Counted from the first letter of the stretch, positions 14,441 through 59,928 are shown. The stretch is DNA of 64,000 nucleotides from Mesotaenium endlicherianum (GCA_009602735.1 WELA01001079.1:62001-126000), one strand, 5' to 3'. Translations and numbers: made by a program. The notes: generated from the sequence alone by a model not told the origin.

Positions 14441-14483
14441 NNNNNNNNNNNNNNNNNNNNNNNNNNNNNNNNNNNNNNNNNNN
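14441..14483. other. Assembly gap with duplicated flanks
   Basis: N run; ~13640-14440 recurs at 14484-15283. Confidence 0.95.
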
Positions 14484-27879: not shown

Positions 27880-28495
27880 AATGTGATCACTACCTAACCC
27901 TAAAAGTTTAGTATCTAAGTATACTGCAGGCCATACTTGCGTCAAGCCGACGACTCAAAGTTGGGCGTTCAAAAATGGCAGTTTGAGGATTGCAAATGAC
28001 TTTCTACTCATATGCTTGCTTATAAGCAGGGAGAACCAGGTGTTTACACAAGTCTAGCAGGAAGGTAAGTGAGATGTCACAAAGAGCATGACGAGAATTA
28101 CTTGCCACCTCTCATGTTGGTGTGCACCATTGTTTATCTAGACTCTTTTGAACATGAAGTATGCTTGTGTTGAAGCTGTCATGCCATCTGTAAAGTATCT
28201 GTAAGGAAAGTTTCTTACAAAACACTAGGAGCCCCGCAAATACCAGGCCTTCACTTTAAGCGATGAGTTGTTTGTGCTGCAGATTTGTGGTGGCGGGTTC
28301 AACCGTGGCATCATGGATTGCCTATGGAGTTAAGTTTGGCACTAAAAAGCGGCCTTGAGGGGCAGGATCTACATTCTCAACCAAATACTATATTTGGAGC
28401 CTACTTTCTCAATTCATAATTTGCAAATACAGATGTACATTTATACAATAAAAGTCCGTGTGCGGACAGAAAACCTTCGCTTCATCATGTGGGGT
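27880..28495 (+). pseudogene. Possible decayed, intron-containing HMGXB3/KDZ-like transposase fragment
   Basis: Frameshift-joined reading GGGF..HHG-IAYGVKF...FSIHN-FANTDVHLYN, with a GTAAG...TGCAG intron candidate. The resemblance is by eye only. Confidence 0.3.
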
Positions 28496-28968
28496 GTCGT
28501 TTGCTAGAAGTACAAAGCTTTCTACAAAGCCTCCTAGTGTGACTGTGTGCATTGAATGCGCCGCCTTTAGCGCCGGTTTTGCAGGGAATATATAGCAGTA
28601 GATGCCCTTGGAAGGACATCATTTTAGAAGTCAATTATGCCAGCTGTGAGTCACAAAGTTATCAGTAAAGTTTACACTTTTACCTTTTGTGTTTCCAGGA
28701 CCACTTAGACTCTCTCTTGTGAAGAGCAAGCCTTCCTAGCTTCCAGTCACTAGAAGAACTTCACGAGTGGTGAGCAAAGTCACAGCTTAGACCCTGCCAC
28801 TGGACTACTTTGAAGATCATGATGTGCTCCCAGTAATCTTTTGGGCCATACTTCATTAGTTGCTTTCCTAAAAGATTTCAGTCTTGAGGTGCTCACTCTG
28901 GAGAGTACACATCCCCCTACTTCTAAAGAGATCTCTCATTGCCTGCAAGCAATTAGAGTCTTGAGGGT

Positions 28969-31700
28969 ATGCCCACCCATAGTGGGGCTATCTTATCGAC
29001 CTTACTACGAAGAGGCTAGTCGCAAGGACTCAGACTAAGACTCATCAACTGCAGGAGTTCCAAATACTCCTTGGAGGAGGCTTACCTCTCAGTTGAGAAG
29101 GAGAGCCTGGCAGCCGCACGGAGCAACATCAGCGACCGTGTGGGCCTCGCATCCACAGGTGTACGATAAGAGGCCGCGGTGGTGCCATCTTCCACGATAC
29201 GACCAGCCCCTGCAGGCCAGCCCCAACAGCAACAGCCTCAGCGCTTGCAGCTGCTTCAGCAGACTTAGCAGTGCGGAGCTCCGCGCAGCCGTATTTCCAT
29301 GGCCGCCACATCGAGCAATCCTTGCTGGTCCTGCGAGAAGATGGGCCACTCTCGACGTGACTGCACGCTCGCGCAGAACAGCAAGCCCGGCGACTGCACC
29401 TACTCTGGCAAAGCTGACCACTTGCAGATTGCTTGCCTACAGGAGAAGCGCGACATCAAGAACGGGCGCGCTCGTGACGAATCCTCCGCCGCGGCAAGCC
29501 AGCGGGGCACGCGCAACCCGTGCACTGGCAGACGGCGTGCGATGATGGCGGCCACCGCCACGATCAACGCCGTGATGACGCCCGGCGAGAACCACTAGAG
29601 CTACGACGCTTTCAGCAACGCGTTGTTAGCAGCCAAAGCCGAGACCGCTTGCCTACACGCTTGCAACGCCAGCTTTGGCTACGGCGCGTGTGGGGTGCGA
29701 TACGCTCGTGCCAACGGCACGCTCCCCGCTCAGGATCTGTCAGTGGCAGACAGGGGCGACCCAATTGGCTGACAGCAGGCAGACGCCCATCCGTCGCAGC
29801 TCGGCTAGCCCATGCCACAGTCCGCCCTTGCGACGAGCCGGCCCCAGCGCCAGCGCACCCAACACGAACGCTGGCGATGGTCCTGGCCTTCACGGCCTTG
29901 CTGTCAACAGCAGGGACAACCATGGTCGGCCTAGCGACAGCTGGCGTCCCCCTACAAGCCCGCCAGACGGCTACGCAGGCCACAATGAACTTCGGCACTT
30001 GCACCGCACACGCATGCGCACGTCTGCGCATGAGGGAGCGCCAGGAGCATTGCTGCCTGCTGCTAGCTGCCAGCAGCTGATTCCAGCAACGGGCGCCACG
30101 CGGCGCGCGTACGGCATCTGAGGCGCCACGCTCCAGCACCAGCATCGTTGTCCGTGGTCAGGCGCCAGGGATGGCGGCGCAAGGTCCATTTCGACGACTT
30201 GGTCTCCTCCTCTTTGGCACGCCAGCTTGAGCAGCTGCGCTTGGCAGCTGCTCCCAGATGCCGTCACTTGGCGCAGGCATATGGCTCGAACCAGTAGATG
30301 CGCAGACGAGAGAGGGGGCCGACATCACCCATCAGAGGGGGGGTACCCCCAATCCTGTCGCATGACCCGATCGTTGGGGAGCCACGGGACGGCTCGCGCA
30401 TGACGTGGCACAGCCAAGGTGTAAACCCTGGCCGCGCACAAAACCCCGGCGTCGCCGCAATCTGCGCTGCCAAGGTTGCACAGGGTCTGCTCGCTCGTAA
30501 GTGGGCCGATCAAGCATTGCACGGAGCACACGCATGTGAGAGCGCCAAAGGATCGACGGCCCGCCTCAGGGGCGACTCTGGAGCGCCACCTAAAGGCCCA
30601 GCATAGGTCCTTCTGGACCCTGCAACCGTGCCGACGCCTGTGCCAGTCCCCACAGAGGCGCCCATCCTCGCCGAGGCGCCAGCGCCACAGCCAGAGTCTG
30701 CACTGGCAGCTTCGCTCGCAATGGCACATGTTGCAGTAGGGTCAACAGCCGCGCCATTTGAGGCCCTAGTTTGTTGTGCACGAACACGGCCACTTGGTAG
30801 TGGTCCGGCATCTCATGAGGCGTCCCGCGAGCGCAAGCTCGTGGCGGTTGCTAGGCAAGCAGCAATCGCACCGAAGCGCGACGGGCTCAACTAGGGACGG
30901 CGTACGGAGGAAGCCCCGCGTCTGCCTTGCTCCTTCCGCGTCTTGGACCCGCCAGCAACGCTAGTCCGGCATCACACGCACTCGCCTCTCCGGTGATGAC
31001 GGTGGAGCTCAACGCCGAGGTGCTATCGATGGCGTTGCACCGCATGCCGGCGGCGTCCTTCGCGGAGTTCGGCGTGACGTTGGAGGCAACTCGGCAAACC
31101 ACCCAGGTGATGCTTTGTTCACGCGCTCTTGGTGCCCGCACGAGCACAGATTGGCCGATAGCAGGGGCTTCTACTGCGATGCTCTCTGATCCCGCTCAAC
31201 CCCCGTACGAGCGCAGGTTAATCAGCAGCCCCAACGCTGCGTTCTTAGACAACGCACAAGGATTCATGTTGGTCAACAAACAGGCCACTCAGCGCATTAT
31301 GTTCAACATTGGCGCAGAGCCAGTTCTGATCAGTCACAGCTATCTCTGGCAGCTGGGCCTCTCCTCAGCCGACCTGGAGGATTTGCCCGTGCGGATCAAG
31401 ACTGCGGCTGGTACATCCAAGTTCGTGACAAGGCGTACTCGGCTGGCGCTCGTCTTCTCATTTCGGCCCGAGACCGAGGATGAGACAACAATCCATCGTC
31501 ACGCGCTCAACACGCGCTCTGACACCTTGACGTTCTCTTGGGGCAGGACGTGCTCTTCCTCATTGGAGTTGCTGTGGATAACTTAACGGAGCGGGCACAC
31601 TATCGGCCCGACTGGCGCACGCAAGGCACGCGCACGGCCTCAATCTCGCTTAACATCCTAGACCGGCGACCTATATCGGCGTCGCTCTACGGCTTCATGG
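28969..31700 (+). pseudogene. gag: Family D gag (internally deleted; two zinc knuckles) and aspartic protease
   Basis: MPTHSGLSY start, CWSCEKMGHSRRDC, CTYSGKADHLQIAC, RIMFNIGAEPVLI (DTGA in the copy at ~52770) and LGQDVLF. Confidence 0.85.
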
Positions 31701-32829
31701 CGTTAGGCGACGATGGTGATAGGCTTGGCGTCACCCAAACAAGCAAGGGCGGCTCGAAGGATGACGACGGTTCTGTTGGGGCAAACCTGCTCCAGCCCCA
31801 GGACGAGGAGCTTGATACCAAGCGCAGAGCTCCACCTCTCACCACAGGATCAAGCGCAGCTGCTGAGAGCGCAGGCCCCAAAGTTTGTGCGCATTTACGC
31901 GGCACAGCACGCCGTGATGCGTCAGATGACAGCAGCAGCGACCGCCGCCGACGACGCCGTTACAACAGCAGTGGCTACGGCTGCTAGAGCCTACGAGCTC
32001 CTCGCAGCCACCGCCAGCGCGGTTCGTCCGTGAGGCGCCTTTGCGTGAGAGGGAGCCCTTGCCCGCCGCACGATCTGATGTCCGCCTACGACAGTGGGAG
32101 TGGCCATGCGGTTTCAGATGGCGTGTCAGCCACCTTCGCCATCAATGCACACAGACGATACCGACCGCTGCACGATTGCCTTGGAGGAGGAGGCCATGCG
32201 CCCGGCCGCCTACGACCTTCTGGCAGATGAGGAGTCGTACGGGATGGCGTCGGAGGAGTCGTACGAGGAGTCGATTGAGGCACCCTCGTAGGCCATGTCC
32301 GTCACGCCTGTCGCTCGCGTTTGCCGCATGCCCACAGTTCCCCTACGCTTCAGCACGCTGATAGAGCCCTCAGGCTTTGACAGGCCTGTTGGTCCCTTTG
32401 GGGTTTGGCCGCTCTTCCTCTGTCGGCCCGCCAGGGTTCAGCTTGCCTACGCCCGCTAGGTCTGGCGAAGCCTTTCGCTGTGTGGCAGGCCCACGGTGCC
32501 AACCCAAGCATGACTGCTCGACTGACGCCAGCTGTCGAAACCTCACGCACAGGCTGTACGACAGAGGTGCCAGAGATGGCAGGTCCGGCTCGTGCGCCTT
32601 TCTTGCTGCTACCTCCAGCACCTCTGACACGCGCGCCAACGCCGCTCGCGCGATTGTCAGCGCACCTGGCACTGCGATGATTGCCGTGCCCATTTTGCGC
32701 TCAGTCATCCGTCCAAAGTCAGGACGAGAACTGCGTGACAGGTTGCGAGCTCTCACTCCGCCGCAGCTCAGGCGCAGTCTTCGCAGCAGGCGCAGTCTCA
32801 CGCCCTCGCCCAAAGGTGGTCAATCTCTC

Positions 32830-32916
32830 ACGCCGCCCTACAGCAATACCCGGGATCGTCCCGTCACTCCGCCCTACCGCAACAGCCGCGATCGGGCAGC
32901 CACCCCGCCGTACCGT
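32830..32916 (+). repeat. 36-bp coding tandem repeat, ~2.4 copies
   Basis: TPPYSNTRDRPV / TPPYRNSRDRAA / TPPYR. Confidence 0.75.
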
Positions 32917-33669
32917 GAGGTGGACAATTTCGAGGATGCCCCGCACTCCACCACGTACGCCACCCACACGCTCTACGATCAGCGGCCACCACTCTTTCGC
33001 AGCCGGCGACAGGCCTAACGGCTTACCTCTCTCCAAGGAGGGCCGCACCAGTACCCGCGCGTGCAACTCCAGGCCCGGACGCCGCTCTGCAGCCGTCGAC
33101 AACCTGGCGCGCCGCCACCCGCATCTTGACGATCAGCTGCCGCTTCACCCGCAGCTCCGTGCCCAAGTGCAGCTGGCGCCTTGCCCGCCAATCACCAGTG
33201 CGTGTCCGGCAGTTTGCTCATGGTAAAAAGCCCGCTGGCAGCGCCAACCTGGTGAACCTCCCGTTCCACCAGCGCCAGCAGGCCTACTACGACCCGCACC
33301 CGTACCTGCCCCAGCGCCCAGTAATGGACCAGCTCACGTACGCAAGATCATGAGGCCAGGCGCAGGTGGCAGCTCACATGCGTGCCATGGCCCAGTCACA
33401 TTCCACGCGTGTGCCCTCTCCCATCTTGCAGGATGCTCGAGACAGGTGGCGTCAGTTACAGGCCCACGCGCGCATTGCCTGGCCCCAGCCGCTGGCTGGG
33501 TCTATTTTGCATCTTACGTGCAATTACGCCGACCGCGCAGTCGTTGCGCTCCGCATGGCTCCTCACTAAGCCAGCATGGCCCGTATATACCCGCCGACAA
33601 CAAAGCCAGGCGATCCTGCTGTGGGTCTTTGCCTCCTGCCATGCTGATCTACACGGAACAGCTGCATGA

Positions 33670-34610
33670 GCAGCTTGGCGGCATCGTCCTGGTGGAGCTG
33701 TTCACCGACATTGCTACTGGGTTGCTGGCTACCCTGCAGGTTGGTATTCCCGTCCGGCTGTACGTCTACGTCAACTCTGAACCTGAGGCGCAGCAGATCG
33801 CCCAACGCCACACGGCGCTCTATCACGAGCACTTTCCATTTGCGCCTTCCGCCTGGCGCAGACCGCTTGGCCCTTGGATGTACGCAATGTCACCGACGTG
33901 ACCCTGACCCCCCTCAGCCACGTGGACCTCGTCAATGCTGGCTGGGAGTGCCACGGGTTCTCCATCGCCGGTCGCGGCGGGGCCCTCAGTGACCCTTGCA
34001 CGGCGCTTTTTTGCACCTTCTTTGCGTCCTCAATATGGTTGAGGTGCGCCAGCCATCTCACTCCCTCGCGTGGGTCTTGCAAAATGTGGCGGTGCGCAAC
34101 GACAACCGGGCCAATGTTTGGGCCAACTTTGAGCTCTGCAACAGCTATCTTGGGCGCAAGGCCGTCATCAACGCTGCGCATTGGGTCCTTCGCCCACCGC
34201 GTGCGCGCCTACTTCATCACCCTGGCACGCTGGCGGCCCTAGCAGCCGCGGACGCACGCCACAATCGCACCATCAACTCCATTCTTGATGTCTTGCGATT
34301 GGCCCAACGCGTCACACCTTTGGCCCACCCATCACAGGCCCAGTGTGAGTTGCTCGGCAACGTCACGCGCGCCCTGCCAACATTCGTCAGCCGCTACGAC
34401 AGCGGAGCCTACATCGGCGCGGCCCGCGAGATGATCATCGACCTTTTCTCCGGCCTGTATGAGCGGTCGCGCGCCGCGGAGATGGAGCGCGCTATGGGTT
34501 TTCCGCCGCATTTGACCAGGTGGATGGCATCACCGAGGTCAACCGCATTTGGCTCTTCGGGCAGGCCATTGATGCCAACGTCTTGACATGGACTCTTTTG
34601 CAGACGCAGG
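33670..34610 (+). pseudogene. C5 cytosine DNA methyltransferase domain within the retroelement polyprotein (frameshifted)
   Basis: Motifs occur in canonical order: I LVELFTDIATG, III DV, IV DLVNAGWECHGFSIAG (Cys codon 33949-33951), VI WVLQNV, VIII GSFAHRVRAYF, IX EMERAMGFP, X RIWLFGQAID. Confidence 0.9.
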
Positions 34611-35106
34611 CCTTCACACCCCTCCTTTTGGAGGCCCGTCATCCCGAGCTTCCCCGCCGCCTGGACGAGCCCAACGACGACTCCTTTGAGGACGACGGCA
34701 CCCAACCTTCTCCCGGCACTCGCTGGCGCTCTCAGCGGGGAGCGCCTGCCCTACAGGCCCCTCCTTATGGCGCGTACCAGCCGCCTCTTGCAATTGACTT
34801 CGACTCCGGCTCCCCGGGGGGGAACGGCGGAGGTAGGAGACACAGCGGGCCAGGGAGCCGCATCGCTCCTCTTTTTTTTTTCCTTTCGCACGCCAGCAAG
34901 CAGCTCCTACAAGTCAACTGGCAGTCGCAGGATAGGTGCGAGCAGGAGCAGATGCAAGGTAGCTGCTCTCTTCCAACAGACAGGCGACGCCAGCAGGGGG
35001 GCCGAGCTCTGCAGCAGCAGCACTGGAGGAGACAAGTGCAGGGCAGGCACCACCCCCAGCAGCCCCTACACGGACGCTGGGGGGGGCCCTTACCACGGCG
35101 CAGGCA

Positions 35107-36539
35107 GTGAAGCTGACGGAGAAGCTCAATACCTGGCGCAGTGCCTACTTTGCCAGCGGCATAGATGACTTGGGGCGCTACACTGGCGACCTCATGAGGC
35201 TCTGCCTTACATCCGACGTGCCCATCTTCCAAAAGCGATACCGCTACAGTCACTTCAAGGACGACTTGATCAGCACGCAGACAGGCAAGCTGGAGGACGA
35301 CCAGCTTAGTCGGGAGTCTTCCTCTACCTACGCGACCCCCACGGTCATGCCGGCAAGGAAGGATGCCTCAAGCAACTGGTCTGAGAAGAGGATGTTCGGT
35401 GACTATCGTAAGCTAAACGAGGTTACTGAGCAAGACATATATTCTATGCATACCCCTGACGCAATCTTCGATGACATTGGCACGTACACATGGTTCTCGG
35501 TGCTAGACTTGAGGCAGGTTTTATCCAGATTCCTATTGCGTTGGAGGACCAGCAAAAGACAACGTTCTGGGGGGCACAACGCCTCTACGATTGGAAGGTG
35601 ATGCCCTTGGAGCTGAAGAACGCTCCAACTACATTCCAGCGGGTCATGGATGAGGACATGGCAAGGCTATCCTTTGCCCGGTGCTACTTTGATGACGTGC
35701 TCGTCTTCAATGAGTCGTTCGAGGAGCACGTGGCGCACATTACCGCCGTCCTGGACCGCTTGGAGGTCGTTGGGCTCAAGTGCCATCCAGGGAAGTGCAC
35801 CTTTGGGACCCGAGAGGTGGAGAACCTCGAGCATCTCCTCTCGTCCAGCGGCTTGGCACCGTAGCTAGCCAAGATCTTGGCCATCACAGGCATCCCGCTG
35901 CCTATCAACGTCTCGCAACTGAGGGACTTTCTTGGGATCGCCAACTAACACCGCCGCTTCTTGCCTGGCTTCAGCAAGCTCGCTAAGCCACTCTACGACT
36001 TGCTGCGGAAGGGGGTGGCCTACGTATGGGGAAGAGAACAGCAGGCGGCGTTCGATAAGCTCAAGGAGATGCTAGTGAGCGTTCCAGTGCTGCGGCGGCC
36101 TGACCACACTAAGCCCTTCATCCTCCACACCGACTGGTCGCTGGCAAGGCTGGGAGCAAGGCTGGTGCAGGAGCACAACGGTTGCGAGCACGTGGTGGCG
36201 TTCGCCAGTTGCAGCAACAATCGCGACGAGGCCAACTATAACTCTTATGAGGGGGAGTGCCTGGCAGCGGTCTAGGCTATCGTGTACTTCAGGCACTACC
36301 TTCATGGCACCCACTTCCGTCTCGTCACCAACCATCTGCCGCTTAAGTGGTTCATGACATTGGAGCGCCTCACAGGCAAGTACGCGCAATAGGCACTAAT
36401 TCTGCAGGAGTACACGTTTGACGTGCACCACCGCCTGGGCTCAACCAACATAGACGTTGACGACCTCACTTGCAACCCGTTGCTTTCCTCCAAGGACCTG
36501 ATCGTGGCCCATCACGACGAGGACAAACCAGCGGCTTGA
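35107..36539 (+). pseudogene. pol: Family D reverse transcriptase and RNase H
   Basis: KRMFGDYRKLN, VMPLELKNAPTTFQR, CYFDDVLV, KPFILHTDWS and NYNSYEGECLA; several stops. Confidence 0.93.
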
Positions 36540-37139
36540 CAGGGTTAAGTCGTACGCTTAGTTCAAATAATACGCTAGTTCGCTCAAGTCGGTACTTTGA
36601 AAAATGGACTAGTTTGCTTCATACGCCTAGTACGCCAACGTTACGACGACGTCAACGTTCACTAGTTACGAAGTTGACATTACATGTCGGTCGCACGTGT
36701 AAAAGAAGCACGTCATGTCAGACTGATTATTTTGTTCAAAAAGGGATGTTATGCCCGCTTTGCGGCGACAAGTTGCGAAATTTTTTTAACTCCGTCTGTA
36801 GCGGGAGGGTAGCAGGCGGATTTGAACACCCGCCGTCGCAAGCAGGGATAAACTCTACTCTACGTGCCGTGCACATTTCTTAGACTCGAAGAGTTTTGAC
36901 TGTGTTAATTAATCATACGCTACAAAAACGGTTGGCGGAAAATAAATCAAAAAAACTTAACTAAAACGGTAGGCCCCGAGCGCCAGCCGACGGGCTCGAA
37001 CCCCCGCCACTGGCTGCTGGAAGCAATGACTTACCAGTTTTTCATTGTAAGTACTTTAAGGTACAAAGATTTGTATTGCTTAATTCCTCAGTATTTAATG
37101 CTGTTTCCGTGTACAATTTTGACAACATTTATTCATGCC

Positions 37140-37550
37140 AAAGCTGGAAGGGCCGCTTAGCAGAGCTGTTTATTGTCCTTCCTAATTATTTTATTAGTCG
37201 AATTAGAACAATTAGAGGTATCATTACTTCTTAATTGGTAACAACAAGCTTCGATGAAGATGTATGAACATGATTCGAACTTTTAGCAAGCATGTGTAAG
37301 AACTTATAAGTTCTTATAAATGCCACATATAAGAGTGACAGAAGTTTGACTAAGAATTATTTCCGTACTCGCTTTTTCTCACTAACACTGGGAGGGAGGG
37401 TCGCTTAGCAGAGCATGTTTTCTGTACTTTGTTACTAGCTAATTGATTCACTAAGAACACTTAGGAGTATTACTTCTCAAGTGAGTACTGTAAGCTTTAG
37501 TGAAGAAATATGACCATGATTCAAACTCTTAGCAAGCATGCATAAGAGTT
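37140..37550. repeat. Diverged direct duplication with ~250 bp period in the hAT 3' region
   Basis: GGG(C/T)CGCTTAGCAGAGC...CATGATTC(G/A)AACT(T/C)TTAGCAAGCATG occurs twice. Confidence 0.75.
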
Positions 37551-37804
37551 TAGAGGTAATCCATACCATGCAAATCATTCACACAAAGTGCAACATTGCA
37601 TGAAGTTATAGGGCACACAAAATTGATTTCAAATATATCATTTTTTCAACTTACATTTCTCTTATATGTACATGCTACCTCTAGTACATAAACATTAGCT
37701 AATTGACACATCTAGTAGCCAATCGCTCTTGGCCTTCTTCTTACAGGAGCATAAACACTAGGTCGCTCCTCCACCTCCTCTTCCTCTACCTCCTCTTCCT
37801 CTAT

Positions 37805-40140
37805 CTACATCTCCTCTTCCTCACTCAACGCGGCATGCAAGGCATGATTGAGATCCTCCTTTTTAGGTGTCTCCAAGAACTGCGCTTCTTCAACCCATGG
37901 AGTCGCGCCGACACTTGGTCCAAGGAAGTCCAAACTCTTCTCTTGAAGTCTCAACATACAATGCACGTACACTAACTTCTTTGCTCTAGTAGGGAGCAGC
38001 CTATTGCGAAGTGGACTATGAACAAACCCGTACTCAGACCATTTCTTCTCACATGCAGTTGCTGAACCAGGTTGCGACAACATTCTCATAGCAAAAAGCT
38101 GAAGATTAGGACAATGACTTCCGTATGTTTCCCACCACTTGTGAGCAGGCATCATGGTCTTATTAGCCTTGCAAACATCATCGCCAAAAATGTCACCGTT
38201 CTGCCGGTAGAGCGCCAACTCTCGATCCACAAATGCTCGGTCAAGCACACTGCCTCCGACAAGGGTATCCGCACGTTGGACCAATCGATTAGTAGACACT
38301 TCTCAACTGCCCAAGACTCATGATCTTGGAACTCGGGGTCCAGTTAGTAGCCTGTAGCCAAACAAAGTCAAGAAGCACTCACTATACGACAACACAATGC
38401 ACTTCATAAATAAGAGAGCAATAACAATAGCAAGCACAATAGTAATAACAATGACCAGCACAAAATAACAATCATGCACGAGAACAACAGCCGCCGAGCA
38501 GAAAAGGTAAACAACATCAAAATAGATATGTACCCGCAGAATGTAAGGGGCTGCAAAGTTGCTCCCAGCGAGCCTTCACGTCCTTCTTAACTTGGGTCCT
38601 TTGTGCCGGTTTGAGTCCTTCAACCTCAAGCACATGCTCTCTCATGGCACTCATGCAAGCCCAAATCTTCCCAAAAGAAGGTTGTGGACAATCGACTAGT
38701 TGAAGGAGAACTACAATCGGCTCACACACAGCTACCCATACCTTCACTCGCTCCTGAAGTTCATCGTCGCGAACTAATCTCCGTAGCCTCACCTACACGA
38801 CCGTTCTTTGCCGCCCACTCGAGCCATCTTCTGTCAGACACCATAGCTTGTACGGTATCCCTCACGACAATGAGTTTCTGCAAGCAAAGGAAGTTACTAG
38901 CAAACCTTGTGGGTCCTGACTTCAACAACTCTAGTTTATTTTCAAGCCTTGCCCCATGCTCCCGGTAAAGAGCGTGAGGCATTTGGTGGTTTGCAACAAA
39001 TTGGACCAAGTGCTTGAAGCTATCAATAATGCCCTCTAATTCTCTTATCTTTCCTATGTCATTCAATAGCAAGTCTTAAATGTGAGCCAAACAAGGCGTC
39101 CAATATTTGTGCGGGTGCCTCTCACGAACCACATTACTACTAGCTACAATGTTAGCTGCAGAGTCTATGCAAAGCTGTACGACATGGTCGGCCCCTATTT
39201 TCTCCACGGCCGCAAGCAGGTGGTTACCAATGTACTCACCCGTTGTCCTTTCACCCTCAGTGTTGATAGCATCCATGAACATCTCACTGCCTCCCACAAC
39301 CATAAGCACATTAAGAAGAGGGTGCCCGCATGGATCGGTCCACCCATCTTTTGCAATGGTACAACCCGTCTGTGGTAGTCCCTTCTTTTGTTTCTTCTCC
39401 CAAGCTTCTATCTTCGACACCACTTTATCTACTAGGGTACTTCCGAGAGGCTTATCCTTCATCAAGACATACTCTACACCCGTTTCTTGGGTGCACCTAC
39501 TGACAGCAATCAACATGTCCCTAAAGAAGTCACTGAGAGCAACATTGAATGATGAACCAGTACCATAGAAGAAGCGTGCGACAGTCTCATGAACAGTCTC
39601 AGCATTCATCTTCTAGAACATGTCACTTATAGAGGTTTGCCCTTACTCCCTACCTAAGGAGGGGGACCCTCCACCACTTGCACAACCCCATTCATGCACG
39701 CGCTTTTGTGCAGCTTGTATGACACTCTTCCTACATCGCGTTTCTAATAGAGAAGTAGCCATACCATTGCTACGGCTAATCATGAGATCTAGAACTTCAT
39801 CGGGAACATCCTGACACTGACTAACATCCTTACAGCCGCCCGTGAAATGGCCACGAATCCGCGTGACTCCACCGGTAAACTCCCTGGGGCAGTAGTTGCA
39901 CTTCACCTTCGAATATGAAGTCTTGGACTTGGCTTCCACAACGATGGTCACATGGCCCCACTCTAGACCAGACCTTACAGCAACTGCCCTAGGGGGTACA
40001 GAAGCGATTAAAGTTGCAGTGGACGCCCTCATTTCAGCAACCGTTGCTCCAGATGAAGTGCATGGTTGGGACATGATGCGCGTGAAACCTCCAATATGGA
40101 TGTATAGTAACAACCAATAAGAGACAAAATAAGATGCCAT
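37805..40140 (-). pseudogene. hAT transposase (BED finger, DUF659-type catalytic region, dimerisation domain) with a probable intron at ~38350-38516
   Basis: KVKCNYCPREF.GGVTRIRGH, CTIAKDGWTD, WTPCLAH, PTRFAS and WWETYG...LSQPGSATACEKKWS; stops and frameshifts. Confidence 0.92.
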
Positions 40141-40189
40141 TCAAATACCATATAAACAAGCAAAAAAGCAACAGTAGGCAAACAAGAGA

Positions 40190-43000
40190 GCATGCAGCCC
40201 CAACAAAAGCAAGCAAGGGGCAGGCAGCCCGCCCCTACTACAACTTAAAACAGCAAGCAAGGGGCTGGCAGCCTACCCCGACAGGAGCACGCACGGGGTT
40301 GGCCGCCAGCCCAGACAGGAGCAAGCACAACATCAGCCAGCCCCAACTAAAACCCTAAAACAGCAAGCAAGGGGCTGGCAGCCCGCCCCCACTAAACCCT
40401 AAAACAGCAAGCACGGGCTGGCAGCCAGCCCCGACAGCAGCAAGCACGGAGCTGGCAGCCATCAACAACGACACATACCCCACCACAAAGAGAGAGTGCA
40501 CAAAAGAGGAAGAAGGGGGGGGCAAGTACCTGATGCACGTGTACAAGGACAATCGCGCATCGACGAGCGCCAAGCGCTGCCGACTTGCTATTTACTACTT
40601 GACCTGCTTCACACATTGTACACCCACCACGAAGAGTTATAAGTAGCGCAGCAAGGGCAGTCTCGCACAGCAAGGGGAAGCTGCAGCACAGCAACAGCTA
40701 GACAGCCCCAAGAAAACCATGCAAGGGGCGGTTGCATCACAGCAGCAGCCAGATAGCCATAAAAAAGCACGCACGAGGCAGCTGCAGCACAGCAGCAACC
40801 AGAGAGCCCCGACAAAAGCATGCGGCTGCAGCACAGCAGCACCCAGACAATCCCTACTAAAGCACAACAAGCACAACAGGGGCAAGCAAGGCAACCCCAA
40901 CTAAAGCACTGTAGGGAAAAGCAAGGGGCTGGCAGCCCGCCTTGCCCACAGCAAGCAAGGGGCGGGCGGCTGCAGCACTGCGCAGCTAGCCAGCCCAGAC
41001 TAAAGCACAACAGGGGCAAGCAAGGCAACCCCGACTAAAGAAAACAGGGGCTAGCACCTGAAGCCATGCTGCAGCTACCCGGGCCCAACCAAAACAAACA
41101 AGGCGCGCAAAAATAGACACACTCACACGGATGACAGCAGGCAGCAAACAGCAGACAATGGGTCAAAAACAACAAACAAGAACCCCCCCAACAAGAAGTC
41201 GAGGGCTCATGCGGGCAAGTGTGGCCAGGCTGCCACAGCGACAAAAGAACAAAGGGAGAGGCAGCAGGCCATCAAAGAATACAAGTTGAAGCGACAAAGA
41301 GTGAATTTGGAGGGGGGGAGGGAAGGCACCTAAAGCACGTGTCGGAGGTGGGCTGTTGTGCAACTGCCGACTCGCTCTTTTGCAACTAGGCTTGCTTCAC
41401 AAAAAGTTAAAAAATAATAATAACATATAAAAATAAGGAGCAGGCGGCTTGATGGAACGCAAGCACGCCAAGAATAGACTACCAGCAGCAGCGCAGCCAG
41501 TGCAAACACAGCAAGCCAACCACAACAACAACTATAGGCCAGCAGGATCTGAGCACAAACAAATATAACGGTACCACGTGGGAGAAAATTGGCATGAGAA
41601 TACAATGTGCATGGGAGGCAAGGACATGGTACTTGAAAAGCGTGAGGAAAGAGGATCCCCGTTGATAGGCACGCAAGGTGGTAAGTCTGCCAACGTCCTT
41701 CTGGCTTGGACACTGACGCACATGATAAAGAACAGGCGGAAAGTTGTAATTAAAGCAATTGGTAGCGGGCAAACAGAAAAGAGGGCGGGCAAAGTGGGAA
41801 GTAGCCGTTGGCGGAAAGTCAAAGCAGCAATTCACAAATGGTAGCGCATAATAACAGTACACAACAAAAGACAAGCAGCAAGTGCTCCTGAAGGACACAC
41901 ATACGCCAGCCAAGGTAGCTAGCACTAACCTACGACCTTGAAAGGTGCGCTACAGACAAAATATGGTAGCACATAACAGCAGCACTCACAAATACTTGTC
42001 AACAACACACAAGCCGGAAGAGGAGCAGCAGCAAGTGCTCGCTAACAAGCACAACATCGAAAGAGGGAGGATGAAAGGACATGGTACCTCATGCAAGTGC
42101 TAGGAGAGAAGTCTCACTTCATAGGCGCAAGGGCTGCCAAATCTGCGGACGCAGCTCTTTCACAAGCCTGCCTGACACAAGATCAAACAGGTCCAGCATT
42201 GTAAAACAAGTTGCAGACTCGACAAATAGCAAAGGCACAAGACTTGCAAGCAGGCAACACGTGAGGGGGCACACAAGAGAGCACAAAGTCGGCAACTGTT
42301 GAGAATGTAAACTAGCAATTGCGAATACAAACAGGGCAACTTTGGCAAAACAGGCGCAACAGAACAGAGAAATTGTAAAAGCAACAGGCAATTAGGGACA
42401 AGCAAAAAGTGAGCGACCATGAGAGAGAGCAGGAAAGAGGATAATGGCGGGGCATGGCACCTGATGCGCAGAGTGAATGACGGAGTGTCTTCAAAGGGCG
42501 CAAGGGGCGGCAAGCCAGAGCACTTCCTTGTCTCAGCTGCGTTGGTCGCACTCAGTGTAAAAAACATCTAAAACTTGTAAAAGAGGTACATGGTAACAGG
42601 CAGCCATCAATGAACATACAAGAGACCAGGCAAAGGGGCAAAAGCTGAAGCCTGGCAGCATGTGAAAAAACATCACAAAACCCTCTAGCAGCAGGCGGCC
42701 ATTAAGACCACGTGTGAATAAATAGCCGCAAAAGGGAGGGCAGGTATGGGCAGCCAAATGGAGCTAAGAAATAACAGAAGCATGCACGGGTGGAAGGCAA
42801 TGTACAAAAACCAAAGACCCGCCTTCCAAAGATAGAGAAGGAAAGGGGAGGAGGGGAGGAAGGGAGGGACATCGAACCTGATGCACGTGTGAGGAGACAG
42901 ACACGTCGATATGGCTCAGCATGCCTGACACAGACACAAAGACAAGGAGGCAAACAGGGACGCAACTATAACATGAGCAAGAGGTAGCCAAGCAGGTAGC
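40190..43000. repeat. Degenerate, strand-asymmetric repeat region upstream of the hAT transposase
   Basis: At least six AAGCA(A/C)GG..CTGGCAGCC-like units, ACCTGATGC(A/G)C at ~40528, ~42459 and ~42876, and a T-poor plus strand. Confidence 0.65.
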
Positions 43001-44419
43001 AAAGCAGACACAAGAAAAACATGTTTGCTTTGCAAGGCAAAAATACAACTTATTCCACCCCAAATGAGAGTACACAGACTATGGCCTCCATAAACACTGC
43101 CATGGCACCCTTCGCCTCCCTCTCCCCAATGTTGTCCCCCTATCTTAATAGACCATTAGACAAGCAGGGGCAAACTTTGTAGGTGCATTTACATACCTAA
43201 GATGAGAAGTCAATCGGACCCCAATGAAAAGTCTATCTCGGACGTGGAGTTGAGCTTCCAAAGCCTTCTAAATTGAAGACACATAGAAGACAAAGGGCGA
43301 AAATTTTCAGTACACATGAGACCAATTGGACCATGCTAATTTGGTATACAAATACATCCCTACACGGTAACAGCTGAAACCCTAAACACCCAGCAAGGAG
43401 GCCATTACACAAAAACAACCTAAGAGATTATCAAACTGGGAGGACAAATAAGAAAGCAAAGAGGGACAGCAAATCTGACCTTGTCAAATCAGCAAATCAA
43501 CCCAGTGGCAGTATGAATGTCCAGACACTTTCTTCTGTCGACGTTTCTGAAAGTATATCAAGCAAAAATGTTGAATAGAATGTAAGTAAAAGAGTAAACG
43601 GGCGAAGACGAACTTGAGTGACATTTGAGAAACTATTAGAGCAACCACCACAATTCAAATCTGAAACATTGAGCAGCATACAGACAACAAGAAGCAAGAT
43701 AGAGCAGGTCATTGAGGCCATCTCAGTTGAGAATGTACATTACACATAAAAAAGTAAGCACATTAGAATCACAAAGTGAACACAACACGTTGACGCCTGC
43801 TACAGCAAGCAAGTGCATACAGCAACAAAGTGATGGAGGTGAACGAAAGGCGAGAAATGCAACTTACGAGCTGAATGGTGGTGCGAAATGAACTGGAATG
43901 GGAAACTAAAGTGTTATGTAGGTAGCCCTCAGGCATGGCCTCAAAGGGGTTGTGGCAGTGTGCTTTGCAGCTAGCGAGGAAGATCCATGAGCAAAGTTCG
44001 CAGTTTCAAAAATATTGGTGAACACCTTCTGGTAAAATTTTGCAAAATTTTGAGTTCTCGCAGCAACCTGACATTATTGTGCCTTCATCTCATCATCTCG
44101 TCGACCGACACTATATTGAAACTCATACGTAAACTTTAGCAAACGGTCCCAGACGTGAAGGCGTTGACGCATTATTGGGCGGTGCGCACGAGTAAAGAAG
44201 TTTTGTACGCTTAGTACGTGCGTACCGACTCAGTACGCTTATTTAAGCGTACGAGAGTCGACTTGTACGGCGTACGGCGTAACCCTGCTGGCATGCGGCA
44301 GCCTTCTTGGCCTTAGTGATGGACAGCGATGCGTGGCTTTGGTGTTCAACACGAGGCGTTTGGCATGGGCTGCAGCAGCAGAGCAGGACAGATGGCAGAG
44401 CAAGCCCAAGGACGTTCGG

Positions 44420-45838
44420 GACGATGCCACATTGCTGCAGTACGTCGCCGCTAAGGAGATGGTGCCTAGCAAAGACGTGAGGGACCGCGACCGCATCCTC
44501 TAGCGCAGCCGAGATTTTGTCTTCATGGAGGGTCGGCTGAGGCGTGTGATGGCCGACGACTCCGTCCTGGTGATACCTAAGCTCGCTATACGCAGCCATC
44601 TGGTTCGCACCGTGCATGAGGCCCTTGGACACTTCAGTGTCAAGCGCACTCTCAACCTACTTCAGGCTGAGAATTGGTGGCACGGCATGGCTAAGGTCGT
44701 GGCTGGCGTTGTCAGCAATTGCACTCTCTGCGACAGTGTGCGCTCACGCTTCACAACGCGCATTGTTGCCTTTAGCCCCTTGCCCATTCAGAGGCTGTTT
44801 TACAGGTGGTCATTGGACTTAGCTGGGGAGTTTCCCAAGTCCCGCCGGGGCAACCTCTACGTCTTGGTGATGATTGAGCACTTGTCCAAGTGGATCGAGC
44901 TCGTGCCCTTGCCCAGCAAGGCCAGTGAGGGGATCGCTCAGGCGTTCCTTGATCAGGTCTTTAGCTGTTTTGGCGGTTGCGCAGAGGTGCTGACTGACCA
45001 GGGCAAGGAATTTCAAGGCAGCTTTTAGAAGCTGCTGGAGCGCTCCATGATCAACAATCGCACCACCCCCCGTGATTAGCCCCAGGCTGATGGCCTTGCA
45101 GAGTGCTTGGTGCAGATTGTCAAGCTGGGGCTGTGCAAGTACTGCCTGACCCACGACAGCATCCATTGGAATGACGCACTCCCGTGGCTGGATATGGGAT
45201 ACAACTTCAGTTGCCAGGCATCCTTGGCCTTGTATTCTCCCTACTTACTACTTTATGGACGCCAACCGATCCTACTAGCCGTAGCCAGGATCGTAGCTCG
45301 GAGTGTTCTAGACTTGGACAGTCCCGAGACACCGAGTGCTCTTAACGGCAGCCTGCACAGCTGTTTCAGCGCCATGGACAATCTCAATATCGCCAAGGAC
45401 CACGAAACGCTGAGGTATGCCATGACTTGTGGAGGAGCCTATTGTCCTCGAGTGTTGCAGTTTTTTGCAGGTGACTGCGTGTACCTATAACGCCAGACGA
45501 AGAACACCCTCGACACTAGCAGCTCGCCGTTCATCCTGCGCGTGAAGCATGCCTTGGCGTCAGGAAAACTGGAGCTGGAAGGCGTAGATGGCCGTCTTCA
45601 CAAGGACCACACGAAGAACTGCGGTCCATGCCACCTTCCTTACCTTGATGTGCAGGTCCGTCCCAGCGACGCGCGGCCGCCCAAGGACTGGCCGTGCCAG
45701 ATTTGCCACAGCCTTGGCCAAGAGGCCAAGTTGCTGCTCTGCAACAGCTGCAACCTGGGCTTCCACATCGGCTGCCTCAACCCCCCATGAGAGCGCGTCC
45801 CCGCTGGAGATTGGCTATGTAATGCATGTTCTAGTTGA
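44420..45838 (+). pseudogene. pol: Family D integrase with C-terminal PHD finger
   Basis: VHEALGHF...CTLC, RWSLDLAG and VLTDQGKEF, then CQIC...LLLCNSCNLGFHIGCLNPP*ERVPAGDWLCNAC (C4HC3) with one in-frame TGA. Confidence 0.92.
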
Positions 45839-46027
45839 CTAACGGTAGCATTATCAGCTCATCAGCTGGAGGCTGAGAGCTGGGGGGGGGATTAAAACAT
45901 TTGAGAGCTGACCTTCTTTTTGGCCATAAGGCCGCATGCCTTTTCGCTTTCACCACAGCAAGTCTTCCTTGCCCACTTGGATTTTGCTTGTATTCACTGG
46001 ACGTGCCTAACCCCCTAATGCACGACG

Positions 46028-47738
46028 GAATTAACACTTGCTCATTTTTGCATATAGTTCATTCTTTCAAAGAGTGTCCATTATTATCCGAAGGTGCTCA
46101 GCATGCTCAAAGTCATTTTAAGAGAAAATCAGAATGTCATCCAAGAAAACTTGCACAAACTTATCTAGATAAAGTCTGAAAATGTCATTCACAGCACCTA
46201 TGAAGGTAGCTGGAACATTTAGGCAGACCAAAAAGCATTACTTTCAACTCAGAATGTCCATACCTTGTGCGAAAAGCAATTTTGTATTCATCTCCCTCAG
46301 CATTCAAATATCCACCTAAAGGTCAATTTTACCGTAAACACCGTAGCTCAAGAAAGTGTATCAAGCAAATCCTCGATTCTAGGTAAAGCATACTTGTTCT
46401 TTACCGTTATTCTACACAATGCTCTAGATTCCACACACATTTGCATATTGCCAACTTTCTTCTTAACAAACAAGATGGGTGCGCCATAAGGAAACTTACT
46501 AGGAGATGTATACCCATTCTCCTCGAATCCCTGAATTTGTGTTTTTAACTCTCTCTCCACAGAGGACAAGCCATAAGTACGCTGCCAGGGAGGTTGACTC
46601 CCAGGCATTAGATCAATCTTATGATCTACGTTCTTCTTAGGTGGCAGCCCTAGGGGCATGTTAAAAACGTCATCATATTGAGAAACAATTTTAGCAGCAG
46701 TGGGGTGCGCCGGAGGGCTTACCACTTTCTCAACCACTTCTTGTTCAGAAGGTACCTCTTCGAGCAGTAGGGCAAACATTTTGTCCTCCTTCTGGTTATA
46801 GCTTTGAAAAAACTCCAATGCATTCAGCAACTTGGATCCTCCTAGGAGCTTTTCTTTTCCTTTCATTTGCCATCCATACAGGATAAGAGAACGAGCTTCG
46901 GTGCGTGCCCATCACTGGTCTCTCTTACTTTAACTGTACCTCTGCTCCAAGACACTTCAGCCTTATGTCTGTTCAACGAGGACCTTCCTAAAACAAGGCC
47001 ATAGAAGCCAGTGTTGAGTACCTGTAAGCTTTTGAGTTAGAACTGCAATGCGAGATTCTAACTGGACCTCAATAGGCTTGGTTATAATTCCTCCCGATAT
47101 ACTTGAATCATCCCTTAGAATTTTTCTTTATGCCCTTGGGTGAGAGTAGGCAGCCTTAGCCGCTTAACCAAGTCCTTATGAATAAAAGTATGTGACGCCC
47201 CTCTGTCAACAAATGCCCTCACCTTCCTACTTGCAATCATATAACGCAATAGAATAGGGGAACTGACTCTTGTGGACTTTCGCACTGTTCTCCTAACTTC
47301 GCAAAGAAATGTTGGACATTGGGTGGAACAAGACCATTTAGATTGTGCACTCCTTGGAGATAAATGTTGCTGATGGTTTCCTTTATCTAGTTGTCAGGTA
47401 TGCTTAGTGAATCTAGTTAACCAGGGCCCATAACACCTGGTACGAGGGCAGTTTGCAATAATTGACTACCTCTAGCCTACTCACAGTCAGTAGACCAGAA
47501 TGTTAACTGTTGCTGTCTTTTATAGGCTGGTCCTTTCTCTGGACCTTTGGTAGGTGGTTTCTAGGACTCTGCCCCCTGTAGTGGCCTCTCTCTTGGCAAT
47601 GGTAGCAAATCGAATTTGCTAAGGCTGGTCTTGGCTTAGTCCTACAACCACCTCTTTGAAAGCCTCCTTAAGAGTAACCACCTCTCCCGCTAGAGTGCGT
47701 TGCATTGTACTCACACCCAGAGTACGCTTGCTCATCCA
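46028..47738 (-). mobile_element. Second family C-like copy: fragment with gag end, protease and RT
   Basis: The reverse complement aligns with ~9140-10800 (HPTAAKIV...SQPPWQRTY...[18 protein letters not shown]). Confidence 0.88.
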
Positions 47739-48167
47739 TGTCGTGCGGTAGGAGGTCGGGTGCGTATCAATGACACAAGCAATGCATACTATGCAAGCAG
47801 GCTTTGCTGCAATGAACTCTATAATACATGTGGCTTTATAGCCAAACGATAGTCACGCGTCAAATGTTTTTATTAAGGAGTGAGTACTCTCCAGAGTGAG
47901 CACCTCAAGACTTTAATCTGGTAGGAAAACAACTAATGAAGTCTGGCCCAAAAGATCACTGGAAGCACATCATGATCTTCAAGAGTAGTCCTATGGCAGG
48001 GGGTATAAGCAATGACTTTGCTCACCACTTGTGAAGTTCTTCTAGTGATTGGAAGCCAGCAAAGCTTGCTCTTCTCAAGAGAGAGACTAAGTAAACCTGA
48101 AAACACAAGAGATAAAAGTGTAAATTTTTTGATAATCTCTGTGACTTACAACTGGCATAATGGGACT
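47739..48167 (-). mobile_element. Family D non-coding derivative: left terminal segment joined directly to right terminal segment
   Basis: The reverse complement of ~47876-48167 matches ~48875-49167. The reverse complement of 47739-47875 is homologous to 45891-46027 and ends CACGACA. Confidence 0.8.
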
Positions 48168-58835: not shown

Positions 58836-59928
58836 TTAAGCACCCAAAAGTGCAACATCGCCCCAACAAAATCAGTTACAACTTACTACTTTGTGAAGTG
58901 ATTGTGAGGTGCTTGCATGCGAGAGACTTCAAGCTAAATGCTCTTCGAATAAAAAATCATAACTCTACACTACTGCAAAACATTTGGCGGTTCACGGGTG
59001 GTCACGGGCGCGTGCAATCCCAAGGCCGTACAAATTATGATCTGTAGTTGGTCAGCGTTCATACACCTTCGACCACCTTTGACGCCTTAGACATGCTTAG
59101 ACAAGTTGGATTAGAGTCACGCACCATGGCACGTGCAATGGGAGAGCAAGCAGTATGTCGAAGCAGAGAGCAAATTTATCACGCAGTTCATGATCAGAAG
59201 CATGCAAATGAAATGGTCTCTCCTGCCACTTATGTCCACCTTAATCTCTTGTGCTACGACTGAATTAAGTTAATCTTGTCGAAGTTATGACCATTGAAAA
59301 GATGGCAGAGCGCTACCTCAAAGCCCTCAACGTTACTGCCTTGCTTGGCGTTTGCGACAAAATTCTGCATGGCTTTATGGCTCAATACATTTAACAGGGA
59401 GAATCCTATGTAGTATTACAGGAAAAATGCAATTCATCATTGACTGCAAAAGGCTTCATAAGGGACACATGAATATCAACCATTGTAAGTATTTCCTTTT
59501 ACCTTCAGCGCTCCTTGTACAAGTCTCTCCAACGTGCAATCCCTATCCTTAAAGAGGAACCCCATACTTGAGAAGATCCACATACACCTGGAGTTAAAGC
59601 ACCCTCCTGCGCCGTGCGTGCATTCGGGATGGCCAAGGTGAACGAGAGCATGAAAATTTTATCTTTAACAGGCTGAGTTTGGATAAAGTCTTTAAATTGT
59701 TTTACTCACAACCTTGCAACCACTGGCAGGATAATCGAAGAAGTGGAAGTGCGTGATACACAATTAGATTAGAGCGGATGGAGGTGCGTTCTCTCAACTT
59801 ATTCCCCTGAAATGCCTCTAATTGCTCATGTGAGAGGTGTGCTTTGATCCACCGCCATAACACAGCATACCATATGCAGGGAGATTAATCCAAGTGCACA
59901 TTGTTGTGGCAGTGAGTGTGACGTCAAC

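What the first reader, a model, noticed from the sequence alone, without database searches (positions are those of the whole stretch)
28530..46027. Chromatin writer and reader in one element: DNMT plus PHD-finger integrase
Seen: the element that carries the DNMT ends its integrase with a complete C4HC3 PHD finger (45695-45829), at the position where neighbouring families A and C carry chromodomains. Known: many PHD fingers bind the H3 tail, and DNMT3 couples an H3K4me0-reading ADD/PHD-like domain to de novo methylation. Inference: the element may combine histone-guided targeting with self-methylation. Consistent with this, the D boundaries that can be read (46027, 47739, 48168) all abut other transposons.
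Basis: partly seen in the sequence, partly recalled or inferred. Interest (0 to 1): 0.8.

Follow-up and report, generated by a model that had tools for sequence, protein, structure and literature searches.

The report
Broken retrotransposon with methylase and histone-reader
This is a broken copy of a known kind of jumping gene that carries both a DNA-methyltransferase-like domain and a zinc finger predicted to read histone tails; the pairing is real and common among its relatives, but whether it guides insertion or self-methylation is untested.

Summary
The observation mostly holds. A DNMT3-like domain (33680-34636) and a PHD finger ending the integrase (45695-45829) belong to one Ty3/gypsy element, split by a 7.7-kb hAT (36540-44287). 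A contig of another copy from a run of the same species joins the halves. The copy is dead: the PHD has an internal stop (45788), pol has further stops and frameshifts.

The pairing is a clade trait: 32 of 37 testable loci selected by RNase H alone carry both domains (about 8 families), and single ORFs such as P0033 hold both. The element has A1-ORF-B1-A2-B2 split repeats, the layout reported for KnitGypsy-Dnmt3 (de Mendoza 2018), so it is most likely a new member of that kind. PHD-bearing gypsies and methylase-plus-chromodomain LTR elements are also in print.

The PHD resembles unmodified-H3-tail readers, but DNMT3/ADD-like coupling is unlikely: the DNMT occupies two different positions and is sometimes cut off by a stop. 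The boundary argument is weak: the window is at least 63% transposon. Not found in the text I searched: the explicit DNMT3+PHD pairing, its spread to liverwort, moss and a chlorophyte, and 4-bp target duplications. Function is untested.

The parts
28528..28911 (+). Repeat A1 of element D copy 1, 5'-truncated (about 600 bp missing relative to copy 2)
   Evidence: 82-83% to 48776-49293 and 19643-19137; no similarity upstream above shuffles for copy 2, marginal for copy 3; contigs join 28911 to 45890, the A-B junction
29320..29367 (+). Gag zinc knuckle (CCHC)
   Evidence: Pfam zf-CCHC 21 bits, cut-off 20.8
30894..31714 (+). Gag-protease region, frame-shifted
   Evidence: tblastn of L002 ORF1, E 2e-13; Pfam RVP_2 only E 0.092
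33680..34636 (+). DNMT3-like cytosine methyltransferase domain, broken by frameshifts; motifs I and VI degenerate, motif IV cysteine present
   Evidence: tblastn of the intact L047 domain in four pieces; own HMM 160 bits summed; relative L002 matches DNMT3A/B/C in PDB
35077..36533 (+). Reverse transcriptase and RNase H, one frameshift, four internal stops
   Evidence: Pfam RVT_1 E 3.9e-17, RT_RNaseH E 1.9e-28
36540..44287 (-). hAT DNA transposon inserted in the RH-INT linker (not part of D)
   Evidence: Inverted ends; Pfam Dimer_Tnp_hAT, DUF659, weak zf-BED; uninterrupted join 36526-44288 in X3
44411..45694 (+). Integrase (H2C2, core, C-terminal region), four in-frame stops
   Evidence: Pfam Integrase_H2C2 E 6e-12, rve E 2e-11; 49% to L002 over 479 aa including the PHD
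45695..45829 (+). C4HC3 PHD finger ending pol; in-frame stop at 45788
   Evidence: Pfam PHD 43 bits; alignment A2; closest PDB class CHD4/KDM5-PHD1/BHC80/BAZ2/UHRF1
45882..45890 (+). G-run directly before repeat B (polypurine-tract-like; function inferred)
   Evidence: Sequence; same G-run before B1 in 9 of 9 related loci shown
45891..46027 (+). Repeat B1; no A2-B2 follows in this copy
   Evidence: About 135-bp inverted match to 47739-47874; A-B joints
46028..47719 (-). Fragment of an unrelated gypsy pol (neighbour family)
   Evidence: 75% to 10802-9155
47739..48167 (-). A2(part)-B2 3' end of another D copy on the minus strand
   Evidence: terminal motif at 47739; same junction letters as the X3 joint
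48168..53389 (+). D copy 2: full repeat A from its 5' terminus, gag and protease region, truncated before the DNMT; contains an 840-N gap
   Evidence: Terminal motif at 48168; matches to copy 1; no DNMT hit

Best explanation
The stretch is a decayed, hAT-interrupted copy of a Ty3/gypsy retrotransposon whose pol region carries a DNMT3-like domain before reverse transcriptase and a PHD finger at the end of integrase, most likely a member of the Gypsy-Dnmt3 kind; in active relatives the PHD is predicted to tether integrase to unmodified histone H3 tails and the DNMT would likely methylate the element's own new DNA in a separate step. Shown: domain content and order, unity of the two halves, decay, clade-wide co-occurrence, purifying selection on both domains in relatives, split direct repeats A1-ORF-B1-A2-B2 with TG..CA termini and 4-bp target duplications in relatives. 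Inferred: protease cleavage releases DNMT and integrase-PHD as separate proteins in the particle; the PHD steers insertion away from H3K4me3-marked promoters rather than specifically into other transposons; the DNMT marks the cDNA or fresh insertion. Odds: identity of the element about 0.9; PHD binds the H3 tail about 0.7; it biases insertion about 0.5; DNMT methylates the element's own DNA about 0.45; both together about 0.25-0.3.
For: One element; both halves rank relatives alike (Spearman 0.66, n=32). Co-occurrence: 32 of 37 testable loci among 80 chosen by RNase H; 33 of 37 proteins with DNMT, INT and a tail of at least 195 aa have a PHD; 38 of 46 RT-RH-INT proteins among the best 150 representatives have a DNMT in the same ORF; P0033 and P0057 show the window's order in one ORF by Pfam. 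Tree: the window falls inside the DNMT-before-RT group (support 0.90), sister to a DNMT-between-RH-and-INT group (0.95); the DNMT tree splits the same way (0.75 and 0.95). Selection. PHD class: best PDB matches CHD4, KMT2D/C, WSTF, KDM5 PHD1, BHC80, BAZ2, ATXR5, AIRE, UHRF1; no tryptophan two residues before the His in 38 of 38 parsed PHDs, Asp after Cys3 in 33 of 38, hydrophobic residue before Cys3 in 38 of 38. Repeats and TSDs. Repeat layout of KnitGypsy-Dnmt3: PMC5890265 figure legend and review file.
Against: No KnitGypsy-Dnmt3 sequence was retrieved, so membership rests on architecture. KnitGypsy-Dnmt3's DNMT gave no methylation in yeast. The acidic cluster typical of H3K4me0 readers is weak: 11 of 38 PHDs have no acidic residue in the six before Cys1, only 11 have two or more. 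The 80 loci are about 8 families, 64 loci from one, and protein searches with DNMT or INT-PHD queries are biased toward those domains. No repeat excess beside 26 termini. The DNMT stretch had almost no RNA reads in 4 of 4 runs (depth at most 0.14). D is less CpG-depleted than its neighbours (o/e 0.70-0.98 vs 0.38-0.69), which is not what heavy CG self-methylation would leave, though GC content and age confound it.
Confidence: 0.6

Rival explanations
1. One reading: the PHD acts like the ADD domain of DNMT3, so that H3K4me0 recognition recruits or switches on the methyltransferase, giving histone-guided methylation at the insertion site.
For: Both domains persist together across both subclades; in the larger subclade the DNMT lies directly before integrase (RH-DNMT-INT-PHD), where an uncleaved DNMT-INT-PHD is conceivable; the PHD is of the unmodified-H3 class.
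Against: In the window's subclade RT and RH lie between them, and a TAG-CAR stop separates DNMT from INT-PHD in L002, L003, L034, L037, L061, L064; each domain occurs alone; the PHD is a canonical single finger, no ADD entry among the 60 of 68 PDB matches shown.
Confidence: 0.12
2. The two domains are independent passengers with unrelated roles: the PHD helps integrase stay on chromatin without site preference or binds a non-histone partner, and the DNMT binds or modifies RNA or DNA:RNA intermediates, or is a non-catalytic DNA-binding module.
For: Negative yeast assay for KnitGypsy-Dnmt3; RNA methylation is raised by de Mendoza et al. for another class; weak acidic cluster; DNMT on the Gag side of a leaky stop in one subgroup; no flank bias seen.
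Against: Catalytic cysteine, ENV/ENT and RxR motifs are kept in most relatives listed; Gypsy-7a, a PHD-bearing gypsy, inserts intergenically 2.6 times more than expected (where selection is not excluded).
Confidence: 0.25
3. The window's arrangement is a chimera: the INT-PHD half beyond the hAT comes from a different element.
For: 7.7 kb separate the halves; no clean 8-bp target duplication at the hAT; no read or contig spans the whole stretch.
Against: Uninterrupted join in X3; spacing fits relatives; intact single ORFs with the same order; A-B repeat joints link the 5' and 3' ends.
Confidence: 0.03

Closest known systems
KnitGypsy-Dnmt3 of Klebsormidium nitens (de Mendoza et al. 2018, PMC5890265)
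   Same: Gypsy pol with an intronless DNMT3-type domain; DIRS-like repeats, described in the review file as A1 and A2 flanking the ORFs with two B repeats flanking A2; purifying selection on the DNMT.
   Different: The paper's main text and 3 readable supplements never mention a PHD; Fig. 4c and the supplementary-figure PDF could not be seen and may show one. It treats the element as a K. nitens lineage acquisition; here relatives are named from Marchantia, Sphagnum and Haematococcus, with two DNMT positions.
EpiLTRs of Cymbomonas and Euglena (bioRxiv 10.64898/2026.05.21.726589)
   Same: LTR retrotransposons combining a cytosine methyltransferase with a histone-reader domain.
   Different: Reader is a chromodomain, they also carry an adenine methylase, and their DNMT is sister to DNMT4, stated to be distinct from streptophyte Gypsy-DNMT3.
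PHD-bearing Chlamydomonas gypsies (Gypsy-7a_cRei; REM1 as cited)
   Same: Gypsy polyprotein with a PHD finger, proposed to limit harmful insertions; intergenic bias 2.6-fold.
   Different: No DNMT in the listed domains and ordinary paired LTRs; no sequence comparison was made here. REM1 was seen only as a citation.
Chromoviruses (e.g. MAGGY) and CopiaMBD
   Same: An accessory chromatin-reading domain that directs or is proposed to direct integration.
   Different: Different readers (chromodomain, MBD) and clades; the window's chromodomain neighbour shares only 27% identity with D's integrase.
DIRS/Ngaro/PAT tyrosine-recombinase retrotransposons, incl. SymbioDIRS-Dnmt3
   Same: Split direct repeats; DNMT3 domain in pol in SymbioDIRS-Dnmt3, shown active on CG in yeast.
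   Different: D has a DDE integrase, TG..CA ends and 4-bp duplications in relatives; no recombinase ORF was seen between the repeats.

Membership tests
Ty3/gypsy retrotransposon | gag, then PR-RT-RH-INT order with gypsy-type RT and RNase H | tested here: met
   Pfam RVT_1, RT_RNaseH, Integrase_H2C2, rve in that order; PR weak in the window, clear in relatives
Ty3/gypsy retrotransposon | Paired identical LTRs flanking the ORFs | tested here: not met
   Split repeats A1-ORF-B1-A2-B2 instead; same exception as reported for KnitGypsy-Dnmt3
Ty3/gypsy retrotransposon | TG..CA termini and short target-site duplication | tested here: met
   In relatives: exact 4-bp duplication in 4 of 10 complete loci (L072/L077 are one locus; L007 lacks its end). 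Not testable on the window copy, whose 5' end is lost
Ty3/gypsy retrotransposon | tRNA primer-binding site after the 5' repeat | not tested
   No tRNA comparison was run
Gypsy-Dnmt3 (KnitGypsy-Dnmt3 kind) | Intronless DNMT3-type domain in the pol region | tested here: met
   broken in this copy
Gypsy-Dnmt3 (KnitGypsy-Dnmt3 kind) | DIRS-like A1/B1/A2/B2 repeats with gypsy domains | tested here: met
   A and B repeats and A-B junction in window and run X3; full layout in 10 related loci; definition
Gypsy-Dnmt3 (KnitGypsy-Dnmt3 kind) | Common descent with the K. nitens element | tested here: inconclusive
Gypsy-Dnmt3 (KnitGypsy-Dnmt3 kind) | DNMT under purifying selection | tested here: met
   dN/dS 0.11 for L002 vs L003; 0.28-0.46 among decayed copies, like RT; not measurable for the window copy
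H3K4me0-reading PHD finger | C4HC3 ligands; no aromatic-cage tryptophan; hydrophobic residue before Cys3 | tested here: met
   criteria from PMC3241642 passages; the position of the cage Trp two before the His is recalled
H3K4me0-reading PHD finger | Acidic cluster N-terminal to Cys1 | tested here: inconclusive
   18 of 38 have an acidic residue at -3 (the window too), 11 of 38 have none within six residues
H3K4me0-reading PHD finger | Binding to unmodified H3 tail, lost on K4 methylation | not testable with these tools
   Needs a peptide-binding assay
DNMT3 with ADD domain | ADD (GATA-like plus PHD-like) domain next to the catalytic domain in one mature protein | tested here: not met
   Canonical single PHD at the integrase end, separated from the DNMT by RT-RH-INT here, or by a stop in 6 loci
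Chromovirus | Chromodomain at the integrase C-terminus | tested here: not met
   PHD, no Chromo hit at that position
DIRS/Ngaro tyrosine-recombinase elements | Tyrosine recombinase rather than DDE integrase | tested here: not met
   rve integrase and 4-bp duplications; no phage-integrase Pfam hit in the 7 relative proteins scanned

The most novel reading that the evidence does not exclude
The window samples an unnamed, green-lineage-wide gypsy clade whose ancestral kit is DNMT3 plus an H3K4me0-type PHD on integrase: the PHD keeps insertions out of active promoters while the co-packaged DNMT3 pre-methylates the cDNA, and a DDE integrase inserts DNA built from DIRS-like split repeats whose internal B|A junction (CA-NN-TG) looks like joined element ends. 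That would be a self-targeting, self-marking retrotransposon with an undescribed replication route, present in model organisms such as Marchantia.
Probability: 0.25. Interest if true: 0.7.

Novelty: new member of a known kind. Interest (0 to 1): 0.4.

Why it matters
Why retrotransposons keep DNA methyltransferases is an open question. Showing that the DNMT3 domain travels with an integrase-linked PHD across many families, including in Marchantia and a chlorophyte, widens the known range beyond Klebsormidium and supplies naturally intact domains (L002, L003, P0033, P0057) and tractable hosts for binding, activity and insertion-site tests. The split repeats with a DDE integrase and 4-bp duplications pose a separate mechanistic question. 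The window copy itself is a fossil and adds little beyond pointing at the clade.

Tried and rejected
No whole genome is held for the window, so copy number and genome-wide insertion context could not be measured. Pfam on the four DNMT fragment ORFs: no hit. My first reading of 45891-47874 as a later insertion inside a long inverted-repeat LTR was dropped after searches showed it to be repeat B of two opposed copies. TGTCATG at 27312 and 28177 as copy 1's lost 5' end: no similarity to copy 2's 5' part above 100 shuffles, and only 36 vs 35 for copy 3 in one of three windows; rejected. Readthrough-type stop in the window's DNMT-RT linker: none found in 34641-35080. Flank test for insertion beside repeats: 0.09 repeat cover in the first 300 bp vs 0.08-0.17 farther out, n=26, small reference set; no support, low power. 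Run search: no RNA holder listed. Contig depth was higher over INT-PHD-B than over DNMT-RT but is not a copy number and was not used. Earlier scan findings: three look-ups, nothing. No structure prediction or complex job was run: a PHD-H3 model would pass by likeness to solved structures. Literature: 10 searches found no text stating the DNMT3+PHD pairing; subscription papers, Repbase, figures, MOESM1 of PMC5890265 and Supplementary Table 6 of bioRxiv 10.1101/2021.11.30.470311 (a list of chromatin-transposon fusions) were not seen and may already hold it.


Full report
Setting. The window is eukaryotic DNA with no genome held and is a nest of transposons: self-repeats, transposon protein matches and the element itself cover at least 63% of it. 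The host was not identified; the named relatives of the element come from Sphagnum, Closterium, Marchantia and Haematococcus, so a green-lineage host is inferred.

Observation. The DNMT is invisible to Pfam in its four fragment ORFs but is recovered at 33680-34636 in four frame-shifted pieces by tblastn with an intact relative; motif IV keeps its cysteine, motifs I and VI are degenerate. An intact relative's domain matches DNMT3A/B/C best in the PDB (E 7.6e-8), ahead of bacterial methylases and DRM2. Two neighbouring gypsies do end in chromodomains, one above and one below the Pfam cut-off.

One element. A hAT on the minus strand occupies 36540-44287, with inverted ends but no clean 8-bp duplication. 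A contig in run X3 joins 36526 to 44288 with nine other letters, i.e. another copy without the hAT. Without the insert the RH-INT gap is 334 nt, within 253-579 in 70 loci. Both halves rank 32 relatives alike (Spearman 0.66).

Co-occurrence. A metagenome scan with RNase H patterns only (540 confirmed stretches, best 80 kept) gave 37 loci long enough to test both domains: 32 have both, 3 DNMT only, 2 PHD only; at 80% identity the 80 loci are 8 clusters, one holding 64, and both domains are seen in 5 of the 8, the rest being cut short or ambiguous. Among 101 proteins from three searches, 33 of 37 with DNMT, integrase and a long enough tail have a PHD. Among the best 150 cluster representatives for an INT-PHD query, 76 hold a DNMT in the same ORF; of 46 with RT, RH and INT, 38 have it, 6 start too close to RT to tell, and 2 long ones lack it. 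P0033 and P0057 show the window's order in one ORF. Trees of RT-RH-INT (49 rows, only those with all three domains; FastTree) and of the DNMT (82 rows, window excluded) both separate a DNMT-before-RT group, containing the window in the pol tree, from a DNMT-between-RH-and-INT group; no formal clade test was run and rooting is on single distant rows. Between intact families L002 and L003, dN/dS is 0.11 for DNMT, 0.05 for PHD and 0.02-0.03 for RT, RH, INT; pairs of decayed copies give 0.24-0.55 across domains.

Repeats and boundaries. Related loci have split direct repeats A1-ORF-B1-A2-B2 (10 complete loci), B1 starting after a G-run, termini TGTCATG and CACGACA-like, a CA-NN-TG junction between B1 and A2, and exact 4-bp target duplications in 4 of the 10. 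The window fits: A1 remnant to 28911, G-run, B1 at 45891-46027; X3 contigs show the A-B junction; 47739-48167 is the A2-B2 end of a minus-strand copy, and copy 2 starts at 48168. 46027 may be a true end, since 10 related loci also stop after one B, but it cannot be checked because the 5' end is lost. With 63-71% transposon cover (a figure that includes D and the hAT), three of three abutting transposons has a chance of about 0.25-0.36, and one of the three abuts D itself. A flank test on 26 termini of the large related family showed no repeat excess (low power).

The PHD class. The profile of nine PHDs matches best CHD4, KMT2D/C, WSTF, KDM5 PHD1, BHC80, BAZ2A/B, ATXR5, AIRE and UHRF1 (60 of 68 matches shown); that many of these read the unmodified H3 tail is from PMC3241642 passages (BHC80, AIRE, CHD4, DPF3) and abstracts in a search listing (KDM5A/B PHD1), otherwise recalled. 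None of 38 parsed PHDs has the cage tryptophan, 33 have Asp after Cys3, all have a hydrophobic residue before Cys3, but the acidic cluster is thin. Binding to an unmodified H3 tail is thus likely, with K4 selectivity less sure.

Mechanism. Most likely the two domains work in separate steps. The PHD is always at the integrase end; the DNMT moves, and in L002, L003, L034, L037, L061 and L064 it sits on the Gag side of a TAG-CAR stop (that this context is leaky is recalled from plant viruses), while other families have an open linker. Each domain also occurs alone (P0047; P0172, P0219). This argues against an ADD-like coupled switch and for an integrase tether plus a co-packaged methylase. Against even this: the K. 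nitens DNMT was inactive in yeast, though so was human DNMT3B, and D is not CpG-depleted relative to its neighbours.

Expression. In four RNA runs of the same species label (6-18% of each read, 80% identity), the DNMT bins had depth at most 0.14, INT-PHD-B and repeat A a few to about 20, the hAT up to 50 with spliced joints; only 14 of 5,873 laid reads were 99% alike or better, so the signal is from other copies. Runs X1, X2 and X7, of unrecorded kind, have near-identical contigs over DNMT-RT and also GT..AG joints upstream, so low-level transcription of this copy is not excluded.

Literature seen. PMC5890265: abstract, sections 9-11, passages, 3 of 4 supplements searched; figures and MOESM1 unseen. 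PMC6673714: passages; states that retrotransposon PHDs and chromodomains are widespread. bioRxiv 10.64898/2026.05.21.726589: passages; EpiLTRs. bioRxiv 10.1101/2022.06.16.496473: passages and section 17. bioRxiv 10.1101/2021.11.30.470311: passages, supplements unseen. PMC3241642: passages. PMC6317226: search listing only, 0 occurrences of PHD. Ten searches found no text stating the DNMT3+PHD pairing.

Verdict. Real feature, dead copy, known kind of element; the writer-plus-reader idea is already in print for related cases. What may be new is the breadth and constancy of the DNMT3+PHD pairing and the 4-bp duplications on split repeats. New member of a known kind; interest 0.4.

Noticed in passing
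L035, L047, L049, L054 (element ends); window 45891-48168: A DDE-integrase element with DIRS-like split direct repeats, TG..CA ends, a CA-NN-TG junction between B1 and A2 and 4-bp target duplications; how such a DNA is made and inserted is unexplained.
   Followed up: partly
L002:5083-5091; L003:4661-4669; L034, L037, L061, L064: Conserved TAG-CAR in-frame stop between the DNMT and RT, suggesting readthrough that would make more DNMT than RT-integrase; many 'DNMT only' proteins of about 1,200-1,440 aa end 76-130 aa after the DNMT.
   Followed up: partly
P0014, P0039, P0079 and 30 or more other proteins: A second subclade places the DNMT between RNase H and integrase; one member is named from the chlorophyte Haematococcus.
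   Followed up: partly
window 36540-44287 (-): Relatives of the hAT are transcribed and multiply spliced in polyadenylated RNA (about ten joints between 38350 and 43487, many with CT..AC ends), with a long multi-exon region upstream of the transposase.
   Followed up: no
window 27737-28848 (+): Runs X1, X2 and X7 show GT..AG joints (28062 to 28281; 27766 to 28283 by a loose end) and an identical high-depth contig running into repeat A1: a spliced-looking transcript appears to end in the element.
   Followed up: partly
window 48655-48950: RNA reads skip 294 nt inside repeat A of copy 2's relatives, possibly an intron in the element's leader.
   Followed up: no
L066:2907-3196; L080:3361-3878: Copies in which repeat A is inverted or internally mirrored.
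   Followed up: no
P0056; P0100, P0101: The same DNMT type in a distant gypsy with a different integrase tail (P0056) and in proteins with a different RNase H family (P0100, P0101), hinting at transfers between retroelement groups.
   Followed up: no
window 57370-58167 (+): Remnant with a weak DDE_Tnp_1-like zinc finger (Pfam E 7e-4), resembling a piggyBac-type transposase end (resemblance recalled).
   Followed up: no
window 59503-60560 and 62957-63999: Two diverged copies (71-88%) about 3.4 kb apart of an unassigned coding-like sequence with no Pfam hit.
   Followed up: no
window 13640-15139; 11326-12364: Tandem duplications of about 840 and 740 bp at 95-96% identity, each next to an N gap, possibly assembly artefacts.
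   Followed up: no
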